The position numbers were made by a program, and so were the translations under genes. The notes below the pieces were generated by a model. It was not told the origin of the DNA. It saw only the letters and a list, made by a program, of their open reading frames with translations, and did not search any database. DNA of 15,809 nucleotides from Acidobacteriota bacterium. Lineage in GTDB: Bacteria; Acidobacteriota; Blastocatellia; Chloracidobacteriales; JADJPF01. Positions 3,054 through 15,809 of this stretch are shown one piece after another; the stretch's first letter is position 1, and every line of letters starts with the position of its first letter. The stretch spans positions 1-15,809 of the forward strand of contig JAFLBC010000021.1 in the NCBI GenBank assembly GCA_017303955.1, given 5' to 3'.

Positions 3054-3359
3054 TTATTCTTCTTCAGTAGTTTTGTTGTGATAAGCTTCACGAAAATGTA
3101 AAACATTTACGCTATCGTCACCTACAAGAAAAAGAATTCTGTAACGTTGGAAAATAATTTGTCTTATCTCAATATAAAATTCTTCGCTCTCAGGGGCTAA
3201 GGGATGGCGATTTGGAAACGTTTCAAGTTTGGCTATTTCTTTCATTAGGCTGTTAAACCACTTTTGAGCTTGTTTAGCTCCCCATTTTTCGCAACCCCAA
3301 TAATAAGCCCTATCTATTTCCTCTCTAGCTGGCTTTTCTATTACTACTTGGTATTTCAT
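3054..3359 (-). CDS. parE: Type II toxin, ParE/RelE superfamily (ParE-like)
   Basis: 101 aa. The N-terminus MKYQVVIEKPAREEIDRAYYW matches the ParE pattern MxYxVxFSxxAxxDLxxIxxY. The C-terminus RYRILFLVGDDSVNVLHFREAYH matches the ParE consensus YRIxYRVEDDxVxILRVxH. It lies immediately downstream of, and overlaps, a Phd/YefM-like gene. Confidence 0.7.
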   Translation of the reverse strand: MKYQVVIEKPAREEIDRAYYWGCEKWGAKQAQKWFNSLMKEIAKLETFPNRHPLAPESEEFYIEIRQIIFQRYRILFLVGDDSVNVLHFREAYHNKTTEEE

Positions 3360-3660
3360 TTTCTACCTCTTCATTTGTAGTAAAGTTGTGTTTTTGACGA
3401 AACTCTGCTGCAAAATCTTCTAGCTTTTGTCCTTCACCTCTTTTAATTGAGTCTAACCCTTGTTTAATAGCAGCAATGGCCTCCATGCGATCTTTAAGCA
3501 TGATAAGTTCTTCATAGCTTTCTGCATCTTGCACAACCAAAGCAGCTTTTCCATTTACTGTTAAGATTAGAGGTTCTTTTGTTTCTTGCATTTGCTTTAA
3601 GAGTTTTGTTGTGTTGCGTTTAAACTCACTTAAACTTTGTATATCTCTTGTTAGTTTCAT
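3325..3660 (-). CDS. Type II antitoxin, Phd/YefM family
   Basis: The start was reassigned to the ATG at 3658-3660 (MKLTRD...), which sits 8 nt downstream of an AAGGA Shine-Dalgarno sequence. The upstream Met codons of the 3325..3723 ORF lack an RBS. IQSLSEFKRNTTKLLKQMQETKEPLILTVNGKAALVVQDAESYEEL aligns with YefM ([48 protein letters not shown]). GLDSIKRGEG aligns with SIDSLKSGKG. The gene overlaps the toxin start by 35 nt. Confidence 0.7.
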   Translation of the reverse strand: MKLTRDIQSLSEFKRNTTKLLKQMQETKEPLILTVNGKAALVVQDAESYEELIMLKDRMEAIAAIKQGLDSIKRGEGQKLEDFAAEFRQKHNFTTNEEVENEIPSSNRKAS

Positions 3661-3775
3661 ACATAATCCTTGCATTAAATTTAATCTTAATTTGATGTTA
3701 CTAATAAATTCTTTCTTTTGCAAAAATTTTTCTAGGAAGGAAGAAATTTAGGGAAATAAGTCATTTTAATCAACA

Positions 3776-6509: not shown

Positions 6510-8363
6510 ATGGCAAAAGATTTTACTATTCGTCGATCTGATGGCACAGAAATAAAAGTTGCTGGCTATAAATTTGCGGCCCCAAATCCTAATGTTAAAA
6601 AATATGCTGGAAAAAAATATGGGGATTCAGAACTTCCTGCCAAAGTAGATTTACGTGAATATATGACTAAAGTAGAAAACCAGGGTAACACTAGTAGTTG
6701 TGTTGCAAATGCTGTAGCAGGTGCTTACGAATATTTAGTTAAACGCTATAAGGGTAAAAACTCATATGATGTAAGTAGGCTTTTTATTTACTATAATGCG
6801 CGTAAATTACAAGGTTGGGAAAATCAAGACGAAGGTTCTTTTATTGCTGATGCTGTAGAAGGGTTAAAAAAATGGGGTGCTTGTTCAGAAGACACTTGGC
6901 CGTTTGATGAAGATATAGTCAATAAAAAACCGGCAGAAAAAGCCTACAAAGAAGCAAAGAATTTTTTAGTAGAAGATGTAAAACTTGTTCCGCTTACCCT
7001 TCATGATTGGAAACATGCTTTAGCAGAAGGTAATCCAATTATTTTTGGTATTTCACTTTATGAATCTTTTGACTCACACAGAAGAAAAGGTCTTGTTCCA
7101 ATGCCGTCCAAAAAGGAAGCATCCCGTGAAGATCATGGAGGGCATGCAATGCTTTGTGTGGGCTATTCTGATGCTGATAGAACTTTTATTGTCCGTAATT
7201 CCTGGGGTAGAAGTTGGGGAGATAAAGGTTATTGCTATATTCCTTATGATTATCTAATTAATGAAAAATTTAATGATGCTGATAGCTGGATTATTAAGCG
7301 ATTAGATAATTTTCCTGATGGAGATCAAGAAGGTTGGGGAGAAGAAGAAAGTGTTATAGAAGAATCTAATACAGAATTCTCCAAAATGACAGATGAAGAA
7401 TACACAGATATGCTTGATGCAATGGGGCCATATCATATTGAATATCGGGTAGCACTGGTTTTAATGCGCGTAATGGGTATAAATAAATCTACTACTCCAG
7501 CTAAATTACAAGAACTAATTACTTCTGTAGACAAACTTCTTACTCAGCTAGGAATTAATGTAAATGCAGAAAAATTAGTTATGAACAGTCTTAATAATGT
7601 TGATAATAATGATTTATTGCGTGAATCCATTGGGCTGCTAGCAAAATATCTGTCTCAAACTATTTTATCTCAACTTAGTGCTGGAACGTTAATCGCTCAA
7701 TTAGGTTTAAGTCAATCTACACATGATTTAATTAAATATGGTTTATCAGAATTAGGAGGCGATTCTTTAATAACAAGTGCTATGGATTGGTTAGGGAATA
7801 TGTTTTCTGATAGCGTTGTAAAAGAAAATAAACAACTTAATACAAATACTAATTCTAGTTCTGATAATACTGATAGTTCTGCTAGCTTGGATGAAACGTC
7901 TGAAGATGAAGTAGAAAGTGAAGATGAAGATATAAGCGAAGATTCTGATGAGGACGAAGAATACGAAGATGATGATGGTGATGATGATGATGGTGATGAT
8001 GATGATGGTGATGATGACGAAGAGGAATATGAAGAAGACGACGATGATGGCGATGATGATGGTGATGACGAGGAAGACGAGGAAGAGGAATATGAAGACG
8101 ATGATGGCGATGATGACGATGATGATGGTGAGGATGAAGAAGACGACGATGATGGCGATGATGGCGATGATGGCGATGATGACGATGATGATGGCGACGA
8201 GGAAGACGACGAGGAAGACGACGAGGAAGACGACGAAGAAGACGACGATGATGGCGATGATGATGACGATGATGATGGCGATGATGATGGCGATGATGAT
8301 GGCGATGAAGAGGAAGAAGAAAAACCAAGTAAGAATAGCAACAGAAAAAAGAGTAGGTGGTAA
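6510..8363 (+). CDS. Papain-family (C1A) cysteine peptidase with a C-terminal helical domain and about 160-residue poly-Asp/Glu tail; no signal peptide or I29 prodomain
   Basis: 617 aa. The oxyanion Gln and catalytic Cys are in ENQGNTSSCVANAVAG, with the same Q-to-C spacing as papain Q19/C25. The His and Asn are in DHGGHAMLCVGYSD...IVRNSWGRSWGDKGYCYIPYD, which matches the papain NSWGxxWGxxGY block. An AGGAG lies 15 nt upstream of the ATG. The N-terminal 45 aa are hydrophilic and are not a signal peptide. Residues about 450-600 are D/E/G/Y only and end KPSKNSNRKKSRW. Confidence 0.8.
   Translation: MAKDFTIRRSDGTEIKVAGYKFAAPNPNVKKYAGKKYGDSELPAKVDLREYMTKVENQGNTSSCVANAVAGAYEYLVKRYKGKNSYDVSRLFIYYNARKLQGWENQDEGSFIADAVEGLKKWGACSEDTWPFDEDIVNKKPAEKAYKEAKNFLVEDVKLVPLTLHDWKHALAEGNPIIFGISLYESFDSHRRKGLVPMPSKKEASREDHGGHAMLCVGYSDADRTFIVRNSWGRSWGDKGYCYIPYDYLINEKFNDADSWIIKRLDNFPDGDQEGWGEEESVIEESNTEFSKMTDEEYTDMLDAMGPYHIEYRVALVLMRVMGINKSTTPAKLQELITSVDKLLTQLGINVNAEKLVMNSLNNVDNNDLLRESIGLLAKYLSQTILSQLSAGTLIAQLGLSQSTHDLIKYGLSELGGDSLITSAMDWLGNMFSDSVVKENKQLNTNTNSSSDNTDSSASLDETSEDEVESEDEDISEDSDEDEEYEDDDGDDDDGDDDDGDDDEEEYEEDDDDGDDDGDDEEDEEEEYEDDDGDDDDDDGEDEEDDDDGDDGDDGDDDDDDGDEEDDEEDDEEDDEEDDDDGDDDDDDDGDDDGDDDGDEEEEEKPSKNSNRKKSRW
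7900..8330 (+). repeat. Cryptic GAT/GAC/GAA/GAG-rich coding microsatellite-like tract encoding the poly-acidic tail, with a recurring (EEYEDDDGDDDD) unit
   Basis: About 430 nt composed almost entirely of GAN codons with periodic GGC/GGT and TAT/TAC. The other five reading frames translate as poly-Ser, poly-His/Arg and poly-Met artefact ORFs. Confidence 0.8.
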
Positions 8364-8398
8364 AATTTTAAACTAAAAATTTCTTATAAAATCTGAAG

Positions 8399-9623: not shown

Positions 9624-11612
9624 ATGAAAAAAGATTCTTTATTGAAACATAAAAAATTAAATACTAATAAGCTTGCCTGGTATGAGTTTTCTATTGCAAC
9701 ACAACTTAGATATGGGTTAGCACTTTCGGTTGTGCTTAGTATATTAATAACAGGAGGATTTTTAATTTATTATAGTTTTCAAGTTCTTTTAAGAGAAACT
9801 AACAAATTGCAAAAAGAACATAGCCGGGTTGCAGCCGAGACAATTGATTCTTATATAGACGATCTTCAAAGAAAACTTAGTTATTTAGCACGTGTAAAGG
9901 GTTTAACCAATCTACCGCAAGCTGAAAAACAAAATCTGCTAGAAGCTTTAACCCGTCATAATGCAGCATATGAAATGGTGGCAATTCTTGATAGTCAAGG
10001 ACAAGTTTTAGCAACTATTTCACCTTATGGCACACCTACGCCAACTACTTTTGCTGATACCCAATTATTTTTACGTACTTTTAAGAAACAGGAAGAATAT
10101 GTTGAATATGTTAGCTTTGATAAGGATGTTAATCAGCTAGTTACTACTTTTGCTGTACCAATTCATAATTTAGAAGATAAAGTTGATGGAGTTCTTTTAG
10201 CAAAAGTTAATCTTAAATTCCTTAATTTTATTGTTTCCCAAACTGATGTAGGAAAAACAGGCTATGCCTATGTTGTAGATGAGAGAAACAAGTTAATTGC
10301 TAAACGTGGTAGTAGTCAAAGTGTATTTAATTTAGAAGATGTTTCAAATCTAGCATTTATTAAAGAACGCTCTATGCTACAAGCTAAATCCTTAAATGTT
10401 TATAAAGGGCTTAAAGGTGTAGAGGTTTTAGGGGCAATTGCTCCTGTTAGAAGTGTATCTTGGTTGGTTGTAGTTGAACTACCAACAATGGAAGCCTACC
10501 AACCTATTTATAATATGATACTTACAATGACGATTAGCTTAATGGTAATAATTATAGTAGTTATTATATTAGGTTTTCTTTTTTCTAAAAGAATTGTTTC
10601 ACCATTTCAACGTTTAACAATGGCTGCTGCACAAATTAGTGATGGAAACTTAAATATCCAAGTTAATATCAAAGCTAATAATGAGTTAGGAATCCTGTCA
10701 AAAGCTTTTAATGATATGGTCTTTCAATTAAAAGAATCTTTTGAAGCTTTAGAGAAAACTAACCAAACATTAGAAATTCGTGTACAAGAGCGAACAACAG
10801 AGCTAGAAGTAGCTAATAAGCAAATTTTAGAGCTTAACGAACGTCTTAAGGCTGATAATTTAAGAATGAGTGCGGAATTAGATGTAACAAGACAATTACA
10901 ACAGATGATTTTACCTAAAGAACAAGAACTAATCCAACTAGCAGATTTAGATATTGCAGGGTTTATGGAACCGGCTGATGAGGTTGGAGGGGATTATTAT
11001 GACGTTGTTAAACAAGGTAATAAAATTAGAATGGGTATAGGTGATGTTACTGGGCATGGTTTAGAAAGCGGGGTAGTTATGATAATGGCACAAACAGCAA
11101 TTCGTACCCTGCTAGCTAATGATGAGAAAGACCCTATTAAATTCTTAAATTCAGTAAATAAAGTAATTTATGATAATACTAGACGTATGAAAAGCCATAA
11201 AAACATGACGCTAGCATTGCTTGAATATGAAGAAGGAATGCTACGTCTTAGCGGACAACATGAAGATCTAGTGATTTTACGTAGTAATGGTGAAATAGAA
11301 CAAATAGACACTTTTGAGCTAGGTTTTCCCCTTGGTATTGAATCAGACATTAAAGCTTATGTAGCACAAACAGACATTAAACTAAATCCAGAAGAAATAG
11401 CTGTACTTTATACAGATGGCCTAATAGAGGCCGTAAATCAGCAAAATGAGATGTATGGTTTAAGTCGTTTATTTCAAGTAATAAAAGAAAGCTCTCATTT
11501 ATCAGCAAATCAAATATGTAGCCAAATAATTGAAAACTTAAAAAAACATGTTGGTAAACAAAAGGTATATGATGATATAACTTTGTTAGTTATAAAGCGT
11601 AAAAAAGCTTAA
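9624..11612 (+). CDS. Membrane sensor serine phosphatase: 2TM periplasmic Cache-like domain, HAMP, coiled coil, PP2C/SpoIIE domain (SiaA/RsbU-like)
   Basis: 662 aa. TM1 is at about aa 31-52 and TM2 at about aa 297-320 (ILTMTISLMVIIIVVIILGFLF), flanking a periplasmic domain of about 245 aa. HAMP is at about aa 321-372. The PP2C motifs are DIAGFMEPADEVGGDYYD, GIGDVTGHGLESG and YTDGLIEA. Confidence 0.8.
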   Translation: MKKDSLLKHKKLNTNKLAWYEFSIATQLRYGLALSVVLSILITGGFLIYYSFQVLLRETNKLQKEHSRVAAETIDSYIDDLQRKLSYLARVKGLTNLPQAEKQNLLEALTRHNAAYEMVAILDSQGQVLATISPYGTPTPTTFADTQLFLRTFKKQEEYVEYVSFDKDVNQLVTTFAVPIHNLEDKVDGVLLAKVNLKFLNFIVSQTDVGKTGYAYVVDERNKLIAKRGSSQSVFNLEDVSNLAFIKERSMLQAKSLNVYKGLKGVEVLGAIAPVRSVSWLVVVELPTMEAYQPIYNMILTMTISLMVIIIVVIILGFLFSKRIVSPFQRLTMAAAQISDGNLNIQVNIKANNELGILSKAFNDMVFQLKESFEALEKTNQTLEIRVQERTTELEVANKQILELNERLKADNLRMSAELDVTRQLQQMILPKEQELIQLADLDIAGFMEPADEVGGDYYDVVKQGNKIRMGIGDVTGHGLESGVVMIMAQTAIRTLLANDEKDPIKFLNSVNKVIYDNTRRMKSHKNMTLALLEYEEGMLRLSGQHEDLVILRSNGEIEQIDTFELGFPLGIESDIKAYVAQTDIKLNPEEIAVLYTDGLIEAVNQQNEMYGLSRLFQVIKESSHLSANQICSQIIENLKKHVGKQKVYDDITLLVIKRKKA

Positions 11613-11638: not shown

Positions 11639-12223
11639 ATGGAAGTAAATACAGAGATTTTTGGAGATTATTACGGTCAAGACTCAGATTCTCAGGAATA
11701 TTTAATCATAAACTTTTCGCCTAGTTCTATCCCTCGTAATAGCCGTTGGCGCAATAATGGAATATCGGCTGACTTTTTAGGAGATTATTTTGCTACTTTT
11801 TTTCCAGGTGATGAAATTCCTGGCTCTAAAATAGGTAAACAAGAAACAATAAAAAGTTCTGTTAGTTTTATTGCTAATGAGCTTTTAGAAAATGCAATGA
11901 AATATAGTTTGGTCAATACTAACTTACCAGTAAGTATTGCACTGTATATGTATAATGAAAAAATAGTCTTTATGGTGACAAATCATATTAGTTTAGAATC
12001 ATCAGAGAACTATAAAACTTATATTAAAGAGCTACTTAGCTCTGACATGGATGAAATGTTTACTAAACAGTTAATAAAAGCAAGCTCAGAAGGTAATAGT
12101 TCAGGAATTGGGCTACTTACAATAATTAATGATTATGGAGCAAAACCAGGCTGGAAATTTGAAAAATTGCTTAATCCAGTAGATGTGGTTAAACTAACAA
12201 TTACTATTCAGTTAGAGGTGTAA
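11639..12223 (+). CDS. Small GHKL-fold (HATPase-like) serine/threonine kinase of partner-switching systems (SiaB/RsbW-like)
   Basis: 194 aa. An N-box-like ANELLENAMKY and a G2-like NSSGIGLLTIIN are present. It lies 26 nt after the PP2C gene and 7 nt before a DUF1987-like gene. The family assignment rests on motif-level inference. Confidence 0.5.
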   Translation: MEVNTEIFGDYYGQDSDSQEYLIINFSPSSIPRNSRWRNNGISADFLGDYFATFFPGDEIPGSKIGKQETIKSSVSFIANELLENAMKYSLVNTNLPVSIALYMYNEKIVFMVTNHISLESSENYKTYIKELLSSDMDEMFTKQLIKASSEGNSSGIGLLTIINDYGAKPGWKFEKLLNPVDVVKLTITIQLEV

Positions 12224-12230
12224 AAAGCTT

Positions 12231-12572
12231 ATGGAGATTAAGACAGCAGATTATTATGTTCGCTATGATGAAAACTTAGCTACTATCTTTTTTGGTGGGT
12301 TTCTTAGATTAGAAGGTGTGGACGCTTACAAAGAAATACTAGATTTATGTGTTAATGTATTTGATAAACAAAAGCAAATATCTATGAATCTTACAGATCT
12401 ACAATTTCTTAATAGCTCTGGTATTAGTATGTTTTCTATGTTTGTATTAAAAATACGTGATCTTGGAGATGCTAAACTAACTATACAAGGGTCAGAGAAA
12501 ATTTTATGGCAAACAAAATCACTAAAAAACTTAAAACGCTTAATGCCTAGTATGACACTAGAATTTATCTAA
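12231..12572 (+). CDS. DUF1987/SiaC-like phospho-switch protein (STAS-like partner-switching component)
   Basis: 113 aa. A GAGGTG Shine-Dalgarno sequence lies 10 nt upstream. TIFFGGFLRLEGVDAYKEILDLC fits the DUF1987 N-terminal pattern (tLeisGeSyPEnaxefYxPvlewl). LQFLNSSGISMFSMF fits the phosphosite region YxNTSSxK of SiaC (Thr68 in P. aeruginosa). A conserved Trp lies near the C-terminus (ILWQTK). Confidence 0.55.
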   Translation: MEIKTADYYVRYDENLATIFFGGFLRLEGVDAYKEILDLCVNVFDKQKQISMNLTDLQFLNSSGISMFSMFVLKIRDLGDAKLTIQGSEKILWQTKSLKNLKRLMPSMTLEFI

Positions 12573-12577
12573 ATTTT

Positions 12578-14254
12578 ATGAGTACATTTGACAACCCTAC
12601 AGGTCAAGACCTTAAGCTATTAGAGCAAATAGAAGTATTAAATAAAGAATTAGCATTGCTAAGAAAAACTAACCAAGATCTCCAAATTCAATTAGAAATG
12701 ACAATTGAACATGGGGATGCAGTCGAAGACCAACTTCATAGTGAGATCCAAGAACGTCATCGCGCAGAAGCAGCACTCCAATCAATCCTAGAAATAGTCT
12801 CAAAAAAAAATATGGATCTTGAAATTATTCTTGAAACTACAGCAGAGCATGGCGATCTTATAGAAAATGAATTACGCAAAACTAGTGAAGCTAAAACGGC
12901 CTTTTTATCAAACTTAAGCCATGAATTACGTAGCCCACTTAATACGATTATTGGATTTGCTCAATTAATGAGCCGAGATAAATATCTTAAACAAGAACAC
13001 CATGAGACTTTACACACCATAATGCGTAGCGGGGAACATTTGCTTAATTTAATAAATGATGTGCTTTCTTTAGCAAAAATTGAGTCTGGAAAACTAACTT
13101 TAAGCAAGCGTCTTTTTAATACCAAAGAGCTACTTAGCAGTATTTATAATATGTTTAGGCTAAGAGCAGAAACAAAAGCCACAGAATTAAAATTTGATAT
13201 ATCTGAGAAATTTCCAACATTTGTTTTTGGCGATGAGGGCAAATTACAGCAAGTGCTGATAAATTTGCTCTCTAATGCTATTAAATTTACTGATCAAGGT
13301 AGTGTAAATCTTTTAGCAGATTGGACTAATGGACAAGCTAAATTTACAATTTCTGATACTGGAATTGGAATAGCAGAACAAGACATAGATTCAATGTTTT
13401 TACCTTTTTTTCAAACTGAAACAGCAAGCAAAATAACTGGTAGCACTGGTCTTGGCCTAGCTATTAGCCGTAGTTTAGTTAAGTTAATGGGTGGAGATAT
13501 AAATGTTACTAGTAGCATTGGTAAGGGGACAACATTTTCTTTTAGCGTTGAAATTACTCCATCCCCAGAAGATGAAAATCTAATGGATGAACGCAAAGTC
13601 TTAAGACTAGCAGACGATAGCCACAAATTTAATATTTTAGTTGTAGATAACAACTTAGAACATCAGCTTTTGCTATCTCAATTACTAAAATCAGTTAATT
13701 TTCAAGTTGATGTGGCTGATAATGGAAAACAGGCTTTTGATAAATGGCAAAATAATAAATTCCATCTAATTTTTATGGATATCCGAATGCCTGAACTAAA
13801 CGGAGTTGAAACAACTAAGTTAATTCGTGATAGAGAAAAAGCTAAAAATTTACCTCCTATGCCAATCATCGCGCTTTCTGCTAATGTATTTGAGCAGACT
13901 AGAGACACAATGTTTTCAGCCGGATGTAATGATTTTATAAATAAACCTTTTAGAGAAAGTGAGCTTTTTAATAAATTAGCAGAATACTTAGACGTAACTT
14001 ATATTTATGAAGAGCTAAAAGGAAAATCTGGTAAAGAAAAAATACTAATTAAAGAAAGACTACTTAAATTGCCTAAAGAATGGCTAGATAATTTTCGATC
14101 TATGCTAGCAAAAGGTTTTGTAGAAGATGCTAAAGCTTTAGTTAACCAAGAGCGTAGTTTAGACCCAGAATTATTTGATGAACTAGAAACTTTGCTTAAA
14201 AACTACCAATTTGATGAAATTGATAGTATTCTTTCAGATAACTACACTAGCTAA
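12578..14254 (+). CDS. Cytoplasmic hybrid sensor histidine kinase (coiled-coil N-terminus, HisKA, HATPase_c, receiver domain, conserved-looking C-terminal extension)
   Basis: 558 aa with no TM segment and no recognisable sensor domain. The H-box is LSNLSHELRSPLNTI, the N-box LINLLSNAIKFT, G1 ISDTGIGI, and G2 GSTGLGLAISRSLVKLMGG. The receiver is ILVVDNN...FMDIRMPELNG...IIALSA. A tail of about 100 aa (LPKEWLDNFRSMLAKGF...) follows the receiver. Confidence 0.85.
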   Translation: MSTFDNPTGQDLKLLEQIEVLNKELALLRKTNQDLQIQLEMTIEHGDAVEDQLHSEIQERHRAEAALQSILEIVSKKNMDLEIILETTAEHGDLIENELRKTSEAKTAFLSNLSHELRSPLNTIIGFAQLMSRDKYLKQEHHETLHTIMRSGEHLLNLINDVLSLAKIESGKLTLSKRLFNTKELLSSIYNMFRLRAETKATELKFDISEKFPTFVFGDEGKLQQVLINLLSNAIKFTDQGSVNLLADWTNGQAKFTISDTGIGIAEQDIDSMFLPFFQTETASKITGSTGLGLAISRSLVKLMGGDINVTSSIGKGTTFSFSVEITPSPEDENLMDERKVLRLADDSHKFNILVVDNNLEHQLLLSQLLKSVNFQVDVADNGKQAFDKWQNNKFHLIFMDIRMPELNGVETTKLIRDREKAKNLPPMPIIALSANVFEQTRDTMFSAGCNDFINKPFRESELFNKLAEYLDVTYIYEELKGKSGKEKILIKERLLKLPKEWLDNFRSMLAKGFVEDAKALVNQERSLDPELFDELETLLKNYQFDEIDSILSDNYTS

Positions 14255-14270
14255 ATGTTAGGAATTAAGG

Positions 14271-15809
14271 ATGGATCAAAAACGCTGGGAACAAATTAAA
14301 ACAATTCTTGATATAGCTTTAGAAAAAGATTCCTACTTGGTTGGGCCATATCTTGACAGAGTTTGTGCAGGTGATAGCAGTTTACGTACTGATGTAGAGT
14401 CTTTTATAAAAATGTTTGAAGAAACAAAAGAAAGCAACTCAAATAAACTAATAAATAACATTCCTTCTTATTTACCAAATCTAATAGAAACTACTAAAGA
14501 TCAAAGTCTCAGAACTTCTAATTACAGTGAAAACCAAACAACAAATATAGATTTAAGTGAAATAAATAAAGCTTCTAAAGGAACTATTTTAGTAGTAGAT
14601 GATTTGCCTAATAACTTAAATTTACTATCAGGATTGCTTTCTATGGAAAATTATCAGGTTAGTGTGGCAAATAATGGTCGTCGAGCATTAAAAATAGTTG
14701 AGACTCTTTCCCCAGATTTAATATTACTTGATATAAATATGCCTGAAATGGATGGTTATGAGCTTTGTACTTTATTAAAAGCTAATCCAAAAACTTCTGG
14801 TATCCCTGTTATATTTATAAGTGCTTTGGATGAAGTGCTAGACAAGGTTAAAGCTTTTGAAGTCGGCGGAGTTGATTACATAACTAAACCTTTTCAAACT
14901 AAAGAAGTTATAGCTCGTGTTGAAAATCAGTTAAAAATATTTCGTCTTCAACAAGAATTGCAAAAAAATATTGAAGAATTAGCTAAGAAAAATCAAGAAT
15001 TAGCTGAAAAAAATCAAGAATTGATTGAGTCTTATAGAAAAGCAAATCATATATTTACAGTTCTAGCTCAAGCTTTGCCAGGCACTATATTAGATGACAA
15101 ATACAAACTAGAAGAAAAAATTGGTTCAGGTGGCTTTGGTGCTGTTTATCGTGCTACTCATATTCCTATGAAACGTGCAGTTGCAGTAAAAGTCTTTAGG
15201 CCAAGTTTAGGAAATGACTCTATTAGTGAGCTTGAACGGTTTCAAAGAGAAGCTATTTCTATTTGTCGTGTTAATCATCCTAATGCTGTAAATGTCTTTG
15301 ATTCTGGCATTTCCTCACAAGGTATAGCTTATATTGTGATGGAACTACTTACAGGACATACTTTAGTTAAAGAATTAAAAGAAAAAACAGTAATTTCTTT
15401 ACGTCGTTGTGCTGAAATTTTACTCCCTATTTGTGAAGTTCTTTCTAAAGCACATTCTGAAGGTATAATTCACCGAGATATCAAGCCCGATAATGTGTTT
15501 TTACATCAAACTACTTTAGGTGAAGTAATTAAAGTAATAGATTTTGGGATAGCTAAATTAATTAAAGAAACACCAAGCTTAAAATTTAGTGATTTAACGG
15601 CTGTAGAAGGTTTTATAGGCACTCCTAATTATATGGCACCTGAGAGAATTCAAAATGTTGACTATGATGGAAAAGCAGATGTTTATAGTTTAGGAGTTAT
15701 GCTTTATGAAATGTTAGGAGGCCGGCGACCTTTTTCATCTAGTATAGGTAGTTCCTTTGGCGTTCTTTCACAACACTTAAATGAAATTCCTCCATCAATT
15801 AAACTGCTT
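14271..15809 (+). CDS. Receiver-domain/Hanks-type Ser/Thr protein kinase fusion, 3'-partial (runs off window end in frame)
   Basis: The ATG at 14271 is preceded by AAGGA. The N-terminus is RWEQIKTILDIALEK...LDRVCAGDSSLRTDVESF. The receiver is ILVVDDLPNNL...LLDINMPEMDG...IFISA. A coiled coil follows, then kinase subdomains IGSGGFGAVYRA, AVAVKVF (Lys), IHRDIKPDNVFL, DFGIAKL and GTPNYMAPE. There is no stop codon through 15809 (513 codons). Confidence 0.8.
   Translation, partial: MDQKRWEQIKTILDIALEKDSYLVGPYLDRVCAGDSSLRTDVESFIKMFEETKESNSNKLINNIPSYLPNLIETTKDQSLRTSNYSENQTTNIDLSEINKASKGTILVVDDLPNNLNLLSGLLSMENYQVSVANNGRRALKIVETLSPDLILLDINMPEMDGYELCTLLKANPKTSGIPVIFISALDEVLDKVKAFEVGGVDYITKPFQTKEVIARVENQLKIFRLQQELQKNIEELAKKNQELAEKNQELIESYRKANHIFTVLAQALPGTILDDKYKLEEKIGSGGFGAVYRATHIPMKRAVAVKVFRPSLGNDSISELERFQREAISICRVNHPNAVNVFDSGISSQGIAYIVMELLTGHTLVKELKEKTVISLRRCAEILLPICEVLSKAHSEGIIHRDIKPDNVFLHQTTLGEVIKVIDFGIAKLIKETPSLKFSDLTAVEGFIGTPNYMAPERIQNVDYDGKADVYSLGVMLYEMLGGRRPFSSSIGSSFGVLSQHLNEIPPSIKLL

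What the first reader, a model, noticed from the sequence alone, without database searches (positions are those of the whole stretch)
14271..15809. Receiver-domain N-terminally fused to a Hanks kinase, preceded by an Acidobacteria/Planctomycete-style RWxxIxxLxxxAL...CxxDxxLRxxVExL N-terminal motif
The protein opens with RWEQIKTILDIALEK...YLDRVCAGDSSLRTDVESF. This signature resembles the conserved N-terminal motif of many Ser/Thr kinases and ECF-sigma-associated proteins. A complete REC domain follows, with the phospho-acceptor Asp in LLDINMPEMDG. Next comes a heptad-repeat linker encoded by a 21-nt tandem repeat at about 14960-15030, giving ELAKKNQELAEKNQEL. The kinase domain follows that. Placement directly after a hybrid HK suggests that His-Asp phosphotransfer gates Ser/Thr kinase activity. 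REC-STK fusions exist but are rare, and this one sits in a partner-switching operon.
Basis: partly seen in the sequence, partly recalled or inferred. Interest (0 to 1): 0.5.

Follow-up and report, generated by a model that had tools for sequence, protein, structure and literature searches.

The report
Response-regulator-controlled Ser/Thr kinase ending a signalling operon
The gene encodes an intact receiver domain joined by a rigid coiled coil to an intact PknB-like Ser/Thr kinase; it belongs to a large, uncharacterised acidobacterial family and sits last in an operon that appears to chain a partner switch, a histidine kinase and this kinase.

Summary
An ORF starts at 14271 and runs off the window. 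The full gene, recovered from identical contigs, encodes 560 aa. Its layout is N-terminal motif, variable linker, REC, one 58-residue helix, then a PknB-like kinase with no further domain. All REC and kinase catalytic residues are invariant across 109 homologues. The organism is a Blastocatellia (Acidobacteriota) MAG.

The "rare" claim fails. All 120 listed homologues are REC-kinase proteins at 45-60% identity, and that list is cut off at E=1e-136.

In all 120, the spacing from REC beta5 to the kinase G-loop is 76, 83, 90 or 97 aa, so it changes in exact heptads. Core d positions are Leu and a positions are Asn. This indicates a switchable parallel dimeric coiled coil.

Six of nine sampled homologues lie directly downstream of a hybrid histidine kinase, as here.

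The upstream PP2C/slr1658/slr1659 genes form a SiaABC-like partner switch. The histidine kinase carries the same twin "TTxEHGD" N-terminal module as the cyclases this switch accompanies in cyanobacteria.

The N-terminal motif marks kinases encoded next to PF07638 ECF sigma factors (4/4 versus 0/104). It is under purifying selection here.

Nothing has been tested biochemically. It is a new variant of a known kind, of moderate interest.

The parts
9624..11612 (+). First operon gene: dCache-HAMP-PP2C (SpoIIE) phosphatase, SiaA-like. It is the likely sensor of the partner switch.
   Evidence: Pfam finds dCache_1 (5.7e-27), HAMP (3.4e-12) and SpoIIE (1.3e-40). NCBIfam SiaA scores 133 bits, below its cut-off of 700. 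A PP2C gene lies upstream of slr1658 in 51 of 66 related loci.
11639..12223 (+). slr1658-family protein with the fold of a GHKL-type partner-switch Ser/Thr kinase.
   Evidence: NF052618 scores 241 bits against a cut-off of 200. The AF2 model has pLDDT 82.9. Its best PDB fold matches are the anti-sigma kinases UsfX, SpoIIAB and RsbW (Foldseek E=1.7e-4 to 4e-3).
12231..12572 (+). slr1659-superfamily protein (113 aa), distantly STAS-like. It is the presumed phosphorylated switch protein, analogous to SiaC.
   Evidence: NF047705 scores 136.9 bits against a cut-off of 100. The anti-sigma antagonist model TIGR00377 scores only E=1.3e-4. There is no Pfam hit. This gene follows slr1658 in 72 of 72 related loci.
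12578..14254 (+). Soluble hybrid histidine kinase: twin-EHGD stalk, HisKA, HATPase_c, REC, then an 80-aa tail. It has no sensor domain and no HPt.
   Evidence: Pfam finds HisKA at aa 105-171, HATPase_c at 218-325 and Response_reg at 353-467. The tail has no Pfam hit and contains no His.
12578..12862 (+). Histidine kinase aa 1-95: a helical module with two DLxIxLxTTxEHGD motifs. This is the proposed docking site for the slr1659 protein.
   Evidence: phmmer finds this module at the N-terminus of GGDEF, PAS-adenylate-cyclase and hybrid-HK proteins that flank slr1658/slr1659 in cyanobacterial metagenome loci (E=1e-30 to 1e-9). It has no Pfam model.
14260..14263 (+). Shine-Dalgarno-like AGGA, 7 nt before the start codon.
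   Evidence: Read directly from the sequence.
14271..15809 (+). REC-coiled-coil-Ser/Thr kinase gene. The window holds codons 1-513; the full protein is 560 aa.
   Evidence: NCBI lists it as MBL8193782.1/MBN8725312.1, 'protein kinase [Blastocatellia bacterium]'.
14280..14411 (+). N-terminal motif, aa 4-47 (RWEQIKTILDIALEK...CAGDSSLRTDVESF). It is predicted to form helices.
   Evidence: AF2 of the 93%-identical orthologue P0001 predicts helices at 3-18, 21-31 and 36-74 with pLDDT 65-82. dN/dS against the orthologue is 0.13.
14436..14582 (+). Low-complexity linker, aa 56-104, predicted to be largely disordered.
   Evidence: Residues 71-99 have pLDDT below 50. Identity to the orthologue is 59% and dN/dS is 0.77.
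14586..14921 (+). Receiver domain, aa 106-217. The phospho-acceptor D154 is at nt 14730-14732.
   Evidence: Pfam E=4.4e-30. D154, S184 and K206 are invariant, and D110/D111 are conserved in at least 90% of 109 homologues. The closest solved relative is PleD REC (6e-33).
14898..15071 (+). One continuous helix, aa 210-267: REC alpha5 runs on as a signalling coiled coil up to the kinase N-lobe.
   Evidence: The AF2 model shows helix 210-267, mostly at pLDDT 93-97. Leu occupies the d positions and Asn the a positions. The linker length is quantised in heptads.
14952..15022 (+). 21-nt tandem repeat, 3.4 copies, encoding successive heptads of the coiled coil.
   Evidence: TRF score 91.
15102..15809 (+). 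Hanks-type kinase domain from aa 278, cut by the window end. Key codons: K307 at 15189-15191, H401-R402-D403 at 15471-15479, D424 of DFG at 15540-15542, activation-loop T443 at 15597-15599.
   Evidence: Pfam Pkinase 1.1e-50. Catalytic residues are invariant in A1 and A2. M. tuberculosis PknB matches at E=8e-45 and TM 0.91.

Best explanation
The gene encodes a soluble response regulator whose output domain is a PknB-like Ser/Thr kinase.

**Core mechanism (best supported)**
- The hybrid histidine kinase encoded 16 nt upstream phosphorylates D154 of the receiver.
- Phospho-dependent pairing of two receivers zips, or shifts the register of, the single long helix that continues from REC alpha5.
- That helix is a parallel, Leu/Asn-cored and therefore marginally stable dimeric coiled coil. 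Its length must keep heptad phase.
- Zipping brings the two kinase N-lobes together. The kinase domains then trans-autophosphorylate the activation loop at T443, the position of PknB T171, and become active.

**Upstream input (inferred by analogy with SiaABCD)**
- The dCache-HAMP-PP2C phosphatase and the slr1658 kinase set the phosphorylation state of the slr1659 protein.
- The unphosphorylated slr1659 protein docks on the twin EHGD motifs of the sensorless histidine kinase and switches it on.

**Downstream target (weakest step)**
- The N-terminal motif, together with homologues that are fused to a sigma factor, points to a PF07638-type ECF sigma factor or another transcription factor encoded elsewhere in the genome.

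**Shown versus inferred**
- Shown: the domain architecture, intact catalytic residues, heptad quantisation, the recurrent HK/REC-kinase gene pairing, the shared EHGD module, and the motif-sigma association.
- Inferred: every phosphotransfer step, whether regulation is positive or negative, and the substrate.
For: **Both domains are intact**
- REC D154, S184 and K206 are invariant in 109 homologues. D110 and D111 are conserved in at least 90%.
- Kinase residues G287, K307, E327, H401-R402-D403, N408, D424, E458 and D470 are invariant. R536 is conserved in at least 90%.

**The linker is a constrained coiled coil**
- The spacing from DY[IV]TKPF to the G-loop is 76, 83, 90 or 97 aa in 33, 62, 9 and 16 of 120 homologues. 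No other value occurs, and the window has 83.
- The d positions are Leu in 89-119 of 120. The a position N241 is Asn in 109 of 120.
- AF2 of the 93%-identical orthologue P0001 shows one unbroken helix from 210 to 267, mostly at pLDDT 93-97, running from REC to the kinase.
- The coiled coil is 100% identical to the 93%-identical orthologue, with dN = 0.

**Pairing with a hybrid histidine kinase recurs**
- Six of nine homologues lie immediately downstream of, and often overlap, a hybrid histidine kinase. The sensor domains of those kinases differ.
- The whole operon is conserved in a second genome (L177).
- A terminator-like hairpin follows the stop codon.

**The upstream genes form a partner switch that targets this histidine kinase**
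- slr1658 folds like SpoIIAB, RsbW and UsfX.
- The histidine kinase N-terminus shares the twin-EHGD module with GGDEF, cyclase and HK proteins next to slr1658/slr1659. In L111 and L130 such a histidine kinase is followed by a REC-EAL protein.
- SiaC binds two conserved motifs on the SiaD stalk (PMC8457831).

**Link to ECF sigma factors**
- All 4 motif-bearing kinases in the sampled loci have a PF07638 sigma gene directly upstream, against 0 of 104 motif-less kinases (p=1.9e-7).
- Seven of the top 120 homologues are REC-kinase-PF07638 fusions.
- The motif has dN/dS 0.13 against 0.77 for the adjacent linker.
Against: - There is no biochemical evidence for any step.
- The histidine kinase is a hybrid without an HPt domain, and no HPt gene lies in the window. 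The route from His to D154 is therefore unclear: it could be direct transfer, with the fused REC acting as a competitor, or it could use an unlinked HPt. Of the six paired histidine kinases, the listed domains show HPt only for the P0042 partner, and some domain lists were truncated.
- Three of nine homologues are orphans with no adjacent histidine kinase.
- No sigma-factor gene lies within 14 kb upstream (window) or 10 kb downstream (L001). Most family members lack the N-terminal motif.
- Dimerisation was not modelled; AF2 was run on a monomer.
- Whether phospho-REC activates or inhibits the kinase cannot be read from sequence.
- The heptad classes are not phylogenetically independent counts.
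Confidence: 0.6

Rival explanations
1. The architecture is the same but the sign is reversed. The unphosphorylated coiled-coil dimer holds the kinase active, and phosphorylation of D154 switches it off. Alternatively, the REC domain mainly drains phosphate from the hybrid histidine kinase.
For: A Leu/Asn-cored coiled coil can transmit a signal in either direction. The histidine kinase already carries its own REC, and hybrid-HK/REC systems often include phosphate sinks (established two-component knowledge). Three of nine homologues have no adjacent histidine kinase, so some basal function without a dedicated kinase is plausible.
Against: The domain is an RD kinase (HRD) with a conserved activation-loop Thr at the PknB T171 position. 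Such kinases usually need induced dimerisation and trans-phosphorylation (established knowledge of PknB). The residue aligned with PknB L33, in the N-lobe dimer interface, is Leu in at least 90% of the family. Strict conservation of linker phase argues for real coupling between the domains and against a passive sink.
Confidence: 0.2
2. The REC is a phosphorylation-independent dimerisation or scaffold module (a pseudo-receiver), and the kinase is regulated by something else.
For: Nothing specific supports this.
Against: All five receiver signature residues are present here and conserved in at least 90% of 109 homologues, three of them invariant. The recurrent, translationally coupled hybrid histidine kinase upstream (six of nine homologues) also argues against it.
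Confidence: 0.05
3. The kinase feeds back on its own operon. It phosphorylates the slr1659 switch protein, the histidine kinase or the PP2C, and does not act on a sigma or transcription factor.
For: The slr1659-type protein is by analogy a Ser/Thr phospho-protein (SiaC T68, PMC8457831). All five genes are in one tight operon with gaps of 5-26 nt. No sigma gene is nearby.
Against: None of the nine homologue contexts contains slr1658 or slr1659, so the family's general substrate cannot be that protein. Fusions to PF07638 sigma (7 of 120) and to TetR (P0115) point to transcription factors. The motif-sigma association is strong.
Confidence: 0.15
4. The N-terminal motif is a non-functional relic of a recent gene fusion between the 5' end of a motif-bearing kinase gene and a REC-kinase gene.
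For: Among the top 120 homologues, only this 90%-identity cluster and P0002/P0003 carry the motif. The motif is separated from REC by a fast-evolving, disordered linker. Its predicted structure has only moderate confidence (pLDDT 65-82).
Against: dN/dS is 0.13 for the motif against 0.77 for the linker, with 10 synonymous and 7 non-synonymous differences. Identity to the orthologue is 87% against 59% for the linker. No alternative start codon gives a REC-only N-terminus except M48, which lies just after the motif.
Confidence: 0.15

Closest known systems
PknB/PknA/StkP-type Hanks Ser/Thr kinases (M. tuberculosis PknB kinase domain, PDB 1mru, 1o6y, 3ori)
   Same: The kinase fold and all catalytic motifs match (phmmer E=8e-45; Foldseek TM 0.91). 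It is an RD kinase. T443 aligns with the PknB autophosphorylation site T171. The family-conserved Leu (Met here) aligns with the N-lobe dimer-interface residue L33; both residue correspondences come from my own hand alignment.
   Different: It has no transmembrane helix and no PASTA or other extracellular sensor. The input comes from an N-terminal receiver through a coiled coil, and the protein ends about 15 aa after the kinase domain.
REC-stalk-GGDEF response regulators (WspR, PleD)
   Same: A receiver is coupled to a dimerisation-dependent enzyme through a helical stalk that continues from alpha5. The REC here is most similar to PleD REC (6e-33; NF007135 3.6e-39).
   Different: The output is a protein kinase and not a diguanylate cyclase. 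There is a single REC. The linker is a long (about 8 heptads), strictly phase-quantised Leu/Asn zipper.
SiaABCD partner-switch module of Pseudomonas aeruginosa (PMC7647112, PMC8457831)
   Same: The components correspond: a PP2C phosphatase with a HAMP domain, a small GHKL-type kinase, a small phospho-protein, and an output enzyme with an N-terminal helical stalk carrying two repeated motifs. Here the motif is EHGD; in SiaD there are two SiaC-binding motifs.
   Different: The proteins belong to the slr1658/slr1659 (cyanobacterial-type) families and fall below the SiaA and SiaB model cut-offs. There is no DUF1987 hit. The output here is a hybrid histidine kinase, followed by a REC-kinase, and not a diguanylate cyclase.
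ECF sigma factors activated by Ser/Thr kinases (EcfP/PknT, EcfK/PknS; predicted groups ECF59-62, 217; PMC8999054, PMC7826278, PMC13147305)
   Same: The N-terminal motif is the one found on kinases encoded directly after PF07638 ECF sigma genes. Close homologues are fused to such a sigma factor.
   Different: No sigma gene is adjacent here. The kinase is soluble and controlled by a receiver, whereas the characterised kinases are membrane sensors. The characterised pairs belong to ECF43, and I did not test whether they carry this motif.
Cyanobacterial dual kinases (HstK family: STK-GAF-HK; PMC2176072)
   Same: Hanks-type and two-component phospho-chemistries are combined in one pathway.
   Different: The logic is reversed. 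In HstK a Ser/Thr kinase domain sits N-terminal to a histidine kinase on one chain. Here a histidine kinase feeds a receiver that controls the Ser/Thr kinase.
Signalling helix (S-helix) linkers of histidine kinases, cyclases and PP2C proteins
   Same: A parallel dimeric coiled coil lies between the input and the catalytic domain. It has polar core residues, and its length changes in heptads. This comparison rests on my own knowledge of that literature.
   Different: Here the helix connects a receiver to a eukaryotic-like kinase. I did not test for the specific S-helix sequence signature.

Membership tests
Response-regulator receiver domain (PF00072, CheY-like) | Profile match above the curated cut-off | tested here: met
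   The Response_reg score is 104.5 bits against a cut-off of 30.2, over aa 106-217.
Response-regulator receiver domain (PF00072, CheY-like) | Acidic pocket (DD), phospho-acceptor Asp, conserved Ser/Thr and Lys | tested here: met
   D110, D111, D154, S184 and K206 are all present. D154, S184 and K206 are invariant and D110/D111 are at least 90% conserved in 109 homologues.
Response-regulator receiver domain (PF00072, CheY-like) | Is phosphorylated on Asp by a cognate histidine kinase or HPt | not testable with these tools
   Only gene adjacency to a hybrid histidine kinase is available: here, and in 6 of 9 homologues.
Hanks-type Ser/Thr protein kinase (PF00069) | Profile match and kinase fold | tested here: met
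   Pkinase scores 173 bits against a cut-off of 31.7. The AF2 model of the 93%-identical orthologue P0001 superposes on PknB with TM 0.91.
Hanks-type Ser/Thr protein kinase (PF00069) | Catalytic motifs: G-loop, VAIK Lys, alphaC Glu, HRD, DFG, APE | tested here: met
   All are present: GSGGFG at 285-290, K307, E327, H401-R402-D403, N408, D424-F425-G426 and P457-E458. They are invariant or at least 90% conserved.
Hanks-type Ser/Thr protein kinase (PF00069) | Catalytic activity and autophosphorylation | not testable with these tools
   T443 aligns by hand with PknB T171.
Acidobacterial REC-coiled-coil-STK family (defined here by homology) | Full-length similarity from REC through the kinase, and a linker in heptad phase (76+7n aa) | tested here: met
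   Identity is 45-60% over 75-83% of the window query, which is all of it except the N-terminal extension (97% for P0003), for the 119 listed proteins other than the close orthologue P0001. The window spacing is 83 aa, the most common class.
Acidobacterial REC-coiled-coil-STK family (defined here by homology) | Encoded directly downstream of a hybrid histidine kinase | tested here: met
   The gap here is 16 nt. Six of nine homologues share the arrangement, so it is common but not universal.
SiaABCD-type partner switch | SiaA and SiaB family membership by the curated models | tested here: not met
   NF038263 SiaA scores 133 bits against a cut-off of 700. NF038262 SiaB scores 20 bits against a cut-off of 85. 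The module resembles SiaABC but is not a member by these models.
SiaABCD-type partner switch | SiaC-type (DUF1987) switch protein | tested here: not met
   The 113-aa protein has no Pfam hit at E<=0.01 and no PDB sequence hit.
slr1658/slr1659 regulator pair (NCBIfam) | Matches above the curated cut-offs, with the two genes adjacent | tested here: met
   NF052618 scores 241 against 200 and NF047705 scores 136.9 against 100. The gene pair is adjacent in 72 of 72 related loci.
slr1658/slr1659 regulator pair (NCBIfam) | Partner-switch kinase fold for slr1658 | tested here: met
   The top Foldseek hits are UsfX, SpoIIAB and RsbW, at E=1.7e-4 to 4e-3 and probability 0.98-1.0.
Multi-step His-Asp-His-Asp phosphorelay | An HPt domain between the hybrid histidine kinase REC and the terminal REC | tested here: not met
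   Pfam finds no Hpt in the histidine kinase or any other window ORF. The histidine kinase tail contains no His. An unlinked HPt gene cannot be excluded.
ECF sigma / Ser-Thr kinase pair (PF07638-type) | Sigma factor gene adjacent to the kinase gene | tested here: not met
   No sigma gene lies in the 15.8-kb window or within 10 kb downstream.
ECF sigma / Ser-Thr kinase pair (PF07638-type) | Kinase carries the N-terminal RWxxI...CxGDxxLRxEVE motif | tested here: met
   The HMM scores the window ORF at E=2e-20. The motif and sigma adjacency co-occur in 4 of 4 motif-bearing kinases against 0 of 104 others.

The most novel reading that the evidence does not exclude
The operon would be a complete four-tier phospho-cascade.
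- A periplasmic dCache signal sets a SiaABC-like Ser/Thr partner switch.
- The unphosphorylated switch protein clamps the twin-EHGD stalk of a sensorless hybrid histidine kinase and turns it on.
- His-Asp transfer to the receiver zips a heptad-phased Asn/Leu coiled coil and activates a Hanks kinase.
- The kinase's N-terminal motif is a docking module that recruits a PF07638 ECF sigma factor for activating phosphorylation.

This single pathway would join partner switching, two-component signalling, Hanks kinases and ECF sigma factors. The motif would become the first recognised sigma-recruitment element of sigma-phosphorylating kinases.
Probability: 0.2. Interest if true: 0.7.

Novelty: new variant of a known kind. 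Interest (0 to 1): 0.45.

Why it matters
- **An uncharacterised family.** Receiver-controlled Hanks kinases would be a direct wire from two-component systems into Ser/Thr phosphorylation. My searches of the held literature found no experimentally characterised example. The family is nevertheless large in Blastocatellia.
- **A testable coupling rule.** The linker changes only in exact heptads and has an Asn/Leu core. This makes the family a clean system for studying how a receiver drives a eukaryotic-like kinase.
- **Two leads beyond this gene.**
  - The twin-EHGD module looks like a portable acceptor site that lets slr1658/slr1659 partner switches control diguanylate cyclases, adenylate cyclases or histidine kinases.
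  - The widespread N-terminal kinase motif, which has no Pfam or NCBIfam model, tracks PF07638 ECF sigma factors. It may explain how sigma-phosphorylating kinases find their sigma factor.
- **Limits.** All of this rests on comparative evidence. The protein itself is one ordinary member of its family plus a lineage-specific N-terminal addition.

Tried and rejected
- **Genome scan for related loci.** It returned mostly unrelated kinases and was useless for gene context. The loci later served as a background set for the motif/sigma test.
- **Junction query to size the family.** A 102-aa query spanning the REC/coiled-coil/kinase junction collected only 31 candidates from the word index and gave 9 hits. 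I therefore have only a lower bound on family size: the top 120 are all REC+Pkinase, and the list is cut at 473 bits.
- **Models for the N-terminal motif and the histidine kinase ends.** Pfam and NCBIfam have nothing for the N-terminal motif or the histidine kinase C-terminal tail. Pfam has nothing for the histidine kinase N-terminal module.
- **PDB sequence searches.** Searches with the slr1659 protein and the slr1658 profile found nothing. Only the fold search was informative.
- **Literature.** I found no paper describing a REC-to-Hanks-kinase response regulator. Galperin's response-regulator censuses could not be fetched. My recollection that they list Ser/Thr kinase as a rare output domain is therefore unverified.
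- **Pseudo-receiver or degenerate kinase.** Rejected on residue conservation.
- **HPt function for the histidine kinase tail.** Rejected: the tail has no His and no Pfam hit.
- **Horizontal transfer shown by composition.** GC is flat at 0.30-0.38 across the window. The closest non-Blastocatellia slr1658 relatives are cyanobacterial, at roughly 50% identity.
- **Copy-number variation of the 21-nt repeat.** All six members of the 90% cluster are 560 aa, so none was seen.


Full report
**1. What is in the sequence**

An ATG at 14271 is preceded by AGGA 7 nt upstream. It opens a frame that runs to the last base of the window, giving 513 codons. No ORF of 60 aa or more lies on the opposite strand here.

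I looked up contigs that encode the identical upstream histidine kinase and recovered the rest of the gene. L001:5993-7675 is 100% identical over the window part and encodes 560 aa, so only 47 residues are missing. The protein ends about 15 residues after the kinase domain. A terminator-like hairpin follows the stop codon, and the next gene converges on it.

NCBI holds the protein as "protein kinase [Blastocatellia bacterium]", so the organism is an acidobacterial MAG. GC content is flat at 0.30-0.38 across the window.

**2. Domains and whether they are functional**

Pfam finds Response_reg at aa 106-217 (4.4e-30) and Pkinase at aa 278-493 (1.1e-50). I aligned the protein with 25 homologues and then with 108.

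- Receiver residues D154, S184 and K206 are invariant. D110 and D111 are conserved in at least 90%.
- Kinase residues G287, K307, E327, H401-R402-D403, N408, D424, E458 and D470 are invariant. R536 is conserved in at least 90%.

Neither applies.

The closest solved relatives are the M. tuberculosis PknB kinase domain (E=8e-45; Foldseek TM 0.91) and the PleD receiver (6e-33). No solved chain spans both halves of this protein. In my hand alignment, T443 corresponds to the PknB activation-loop site T171. The family-conserved Leu at column 300 (Met in this protein) corresponds to PknB L33 in the N-lobe dimer interface.

**3. The linker**

TRF confirms a 21-nt repeat at 14952-15022 with 3.4 copies. 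It encodes consecutive heptads.

In all 120 listed homologues, the distance from the REC beta5 motif DY[IV]TKPF to the kinase G-loop takes only four values: 76, 83, 90 or 97 residues, in 33, 62, 9 and 16 sequences. The window protein has 83. In the alignment, seven-residue indels occur at several different positions.

The d positions are almost always Leu (89-119 of 120). The a positions are mostly Asn: N241 in 109 of 120 and N248 in 70 of 120. AlphaFold2 on the 93%-identical orthologue, with a 109-sequence alignment, gives mean pLDDT 85.8. It shows REC alpha5 continuing as one helix from 210 to 267, mostly at pLDDT 93-97, into kinase strand beta1. Between the two orthologues this segment is 100% identical, with dN = 0.

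A Leu/Asn core and strict heptad phase are what one expects of a parallel, marginally stable dimeric signalling coiled coil. That expectation rests on established knowledge of GCN4-type zippers and signalling helices.

**4. How common the architecture is**

The protein search scored 8000 candidates. All 120 proteins it lists carry both PF00072 and PF00069, and the last one still scores 473 bits. Apart from the close orthologue P0001, they share 45-60% identity over 75-83% of the query (97% for P0003). Where the source gives a name, it is mostly Blastocatellia.

The family is therefore large, and "rare" is not correct. I could not obtain a full count (one search failed).

Most members are 445-520 aa and start a few residues before the receiver. 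Variants include:

- REC-kinase-PF07638 sigma factor fusions (7 of 120);
- a REC-kinase-TetR fusion (P0115);
- a HisKA-REC-kinase fusion (P0112);
- motif-kinase-REC-coiled-coil-kinase double kinases (P0002, P0003).

Among the listed proteins of the usual single-kinase layout, the N-terminal 100 residues of the window protein occur only in its own 90%-identity cluster.

**5. Gene context of homologues**

I sampled nine homologues on long contigs.

- Six lie immediately downstream of, and often overlap by 4 nt, a hybrid histidine kinase (HisKA-HATPase-REC). Those kinases carry varied sensors: Reg_prop/Y_Y_Y, PAS, or REC-PAS. The listed domains show HPt for one of them.
- Three are orphans.

One genome, GCA_019695185.1, holds at least three such pairs. 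None of the nine contexts contains slr1658 or slr1659. A second genome (L177) conserves the whole window operon.

The hybrid-HK/REC-kinase pair is therefore the recurring unit. This is the main comparative support for His-Asp control of the kinase.

**6. The upstream genes**

The operon has gaps of 5-26 nt between genes. It reads as follows:

- dCache-HAMP-PP2C, which is SiaA-like but below that model's cut-off;
- an slr1658-family protein;
- an slr1659-superfamily protein;
- the hybrid histidine kinase;
- the REC-kinase.

An AF2 model of the slr1658 protein (pLDDT 82.9) matches the partner-switch kinases UsfX, SpoIIAB and RsbW best. The slr1659 protein has no Pfam hit, so DUF1987 is not supported. 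It shows only weak similarity to anti-sigma antagonists.

The closest non-Blastocatellia relatives of slr1658 are cyanobacterial, at roughly 50% identity. In 80 metagenomic slr1658 loci:

- slr1659 follows slr1658 in 72 of 72;
- a PP2C gene precedes it in 51 of 66;
- 26 of 42 loci with both flanks available hold a neighbour whose N-terminus is homologous to aa 1-95 of the window histidine kinase. This is a helical module with two DLxIxLxTTxEHGD motifs.

Those neighbours are GGDEF cyclases (22 loci), PAS-adenylate cyclases or other proteins (12) and hybrid histidine kinases (7). In L111 and L130 the histidine kinase is followed by a REC-EAL protein. Only the organism's own locus (L097) has a REC-kinase.

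In the P. aeruginosa SiaABCD system, unphosphorylated SiaC binds two conserved motifs on the SiaD stalk and promotes the active parallel dimer (PMC8457831). By analogy, the sensorless window histidine kinase is an output of the partner switch. The REC-kinase then occupies the position that REC-EAL holds in cyanobacteria.

**7. The N-terminal motif**

A phmmer search with aa 1-55 against 1.84 billion representative proteins gave 139 hits at E<=1e-3, almost all at residues 1-52 of the hit. The nine long hits scanned are motif + Pkinase (starting at about aa 80-100) + TPR, PEGA, FGE or AAA domains. Some proteins carry two or three tandem copies. No Pfam or NCBIfam model covers the motif.

The otherwise unhelpful generic-kinase loci served as a background set.

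| Kinase ORFs in L007-L086 | PF07638 sigma gene directly upstream | No adjacent sigma gene |
|---|---|---|
| With the motif (4) | 4 | 0 |
| Without the motif (104) | 0 | 104 |

The four sigma ORFs match Pfam PF07638 at E=1e-52 to 1e-63, and Fisher's exact test gives p=1.9e-7.

In the window protein the motif is under purifying selection (dN/dS 0.13). The linker that follows evolves almost neutrally (dN/dS 0.77).

Phosphorylation-activated ECF sigma factors are established for EcfP/PknT and EcfK/PknS, and are predicted for several planctomycete and acidobacterial groups (PMC8999054, PMC7826278). Two independent lines therefore link this protein to PF07638 sigma factors: the motif, and the fused homologues. 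However, no sigma gene lies within 14 kb upstream or 10 kb downstream.

**8. Most likely mechanism and its weak points**

The best-supported reading is this. The adjacent hybrid histidine kinase controls phosphorylation of D154. Receiver pairing acts through the phase-locked coiled coil to bring two kinase domains together. The kinase domains then trans-autophosphorylate and become active.

- **Upstream.** The partner switch controls the histidine kinase through the twin-EHGD stalk.
- **Downstream.** A sigma factor or another transcription factor is the best guess for the substrate.
- **Weak points.**
  - No step has been tested biochemically.
  - The histidine kinase lacks an HPt domain, so the phosphoryl route is unclear.
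  - The sign of regulation is unknown.
  - The substrate is the least secure step.
  - Dimerisation was not modelled.

**9. Comparison and verdict**

The protein is a member of the receiver and Hanks-kinase families by every sequence criterion I could test. It is also a member of a large acidobacterial REC-coiled-coil-kinase family that, as far as the held literature shows, is uncharacterised.

- It works like WspR or PleD, with the cyclase replaced by a kinase.
- Its operon works like SiaABCD, with the cyclase replaced by a histidine kinase plus a response regulator.
- It fails the curated SiaA and SiaB cut-offs and the DUF1987 test.
- It is not a canonical phosphorelay, because no HPt domain was found.
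- It is not a genomic sigma/kinase pair, because no adjacent sigma gene was found.

I rate it a new variant of a known kind, of moderate interest. The heptad rule, the EHGD module and the motif-sigma association are the parts worth following up.

Noticed in passing
window 6510-8363 (+): A papain-family C1 cysteine peptidase (PF00112, 5e-18) carries a C-terminal tail of about 170 aa made almost entirely of Asp and Glu. The repeat also produces spurious poly-Ser, poly-His and poly-Met ORFs in other frames (7712-8376).
   Followed up: partly
window 12578-12862 (+), and loci L099-L162: The histidine kinase N-terminus is a helical module with two DLxIxLxTTxEHGD motifs and no Pfam model. The same module heads GGDEF, PAS-adenylate-cyclase and hybrid-HK proteins next to slr1658/slr1659 in cyanobacterial metagenomes. 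It may be a portable docking site for the slr1659 switch protein, like the two SiaC-binding motifs on the SiaD stalk.
   Followed up: yes
window 14009-14251 (+): The hybrid histidine kinase has an 80-aa helical tail after its REC domain. The tail has no His and no Pfam hit, and it was found only in this lineage. Its function is unknown, and it is not an HPt domain.
   Followed up: partly
P0037, P0084, P0087, P0092, P0108, P0111, P0119 (L093:8001-10073); P0115: Close homologues (52-55% identity) are fused at the C-terminus to a PF07638 ECF sigma factor or to a TetR regulator. The sigma-fused P0087 also sits directly after a hybrid histidine kinase. This would put a kinase and its likely substrate on one chain.
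   Followed up: partly
L058:125-4071, L066:12751-15276, L073:7455-11097, L086:8837-11938: Every kinase in the background set that carries the N-terminal RWxxI...CxGDxxLRxEVE motif is encoded directly after a PF07638 ECF sigma gene (4 of 4 against 0 of 104). The motif has no Pfam or NCBIfam model. In some proteins it occurs in two or three tandem copies (P0161, P0163, P0168).
   Followed up: yes
window 3054-3723 (-): A ParE toxin / Phd-YefM antitoxin pair with overlapping genes lies between an asparagine-synthase-like gene plus a truncated AMP-binding (adenylation) gene and a Zn-dependent alcohol dehydrogenase.
   Followed up: no
window 11639-12572 (+); Outside Blastocatellia, the closest listed relatives of the slr1658 protein are cyanobacterial wherever the source names an organism (Leptolyngbyaceae and others), at roughly 50% identity. 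This hints that the partner-switch module moved between phyla, although the window shows no GC anomaly.
   Followed up: partly
L092, L095: Two REC-kinase paralogue loci also carry a PatA_N-REC response regulator gene and CheW genes; L092 additionally has CheA-like and CheB genes. This suggests a link to a chemosensory-type pathway in some Blastocatellia.
   Followed up: no
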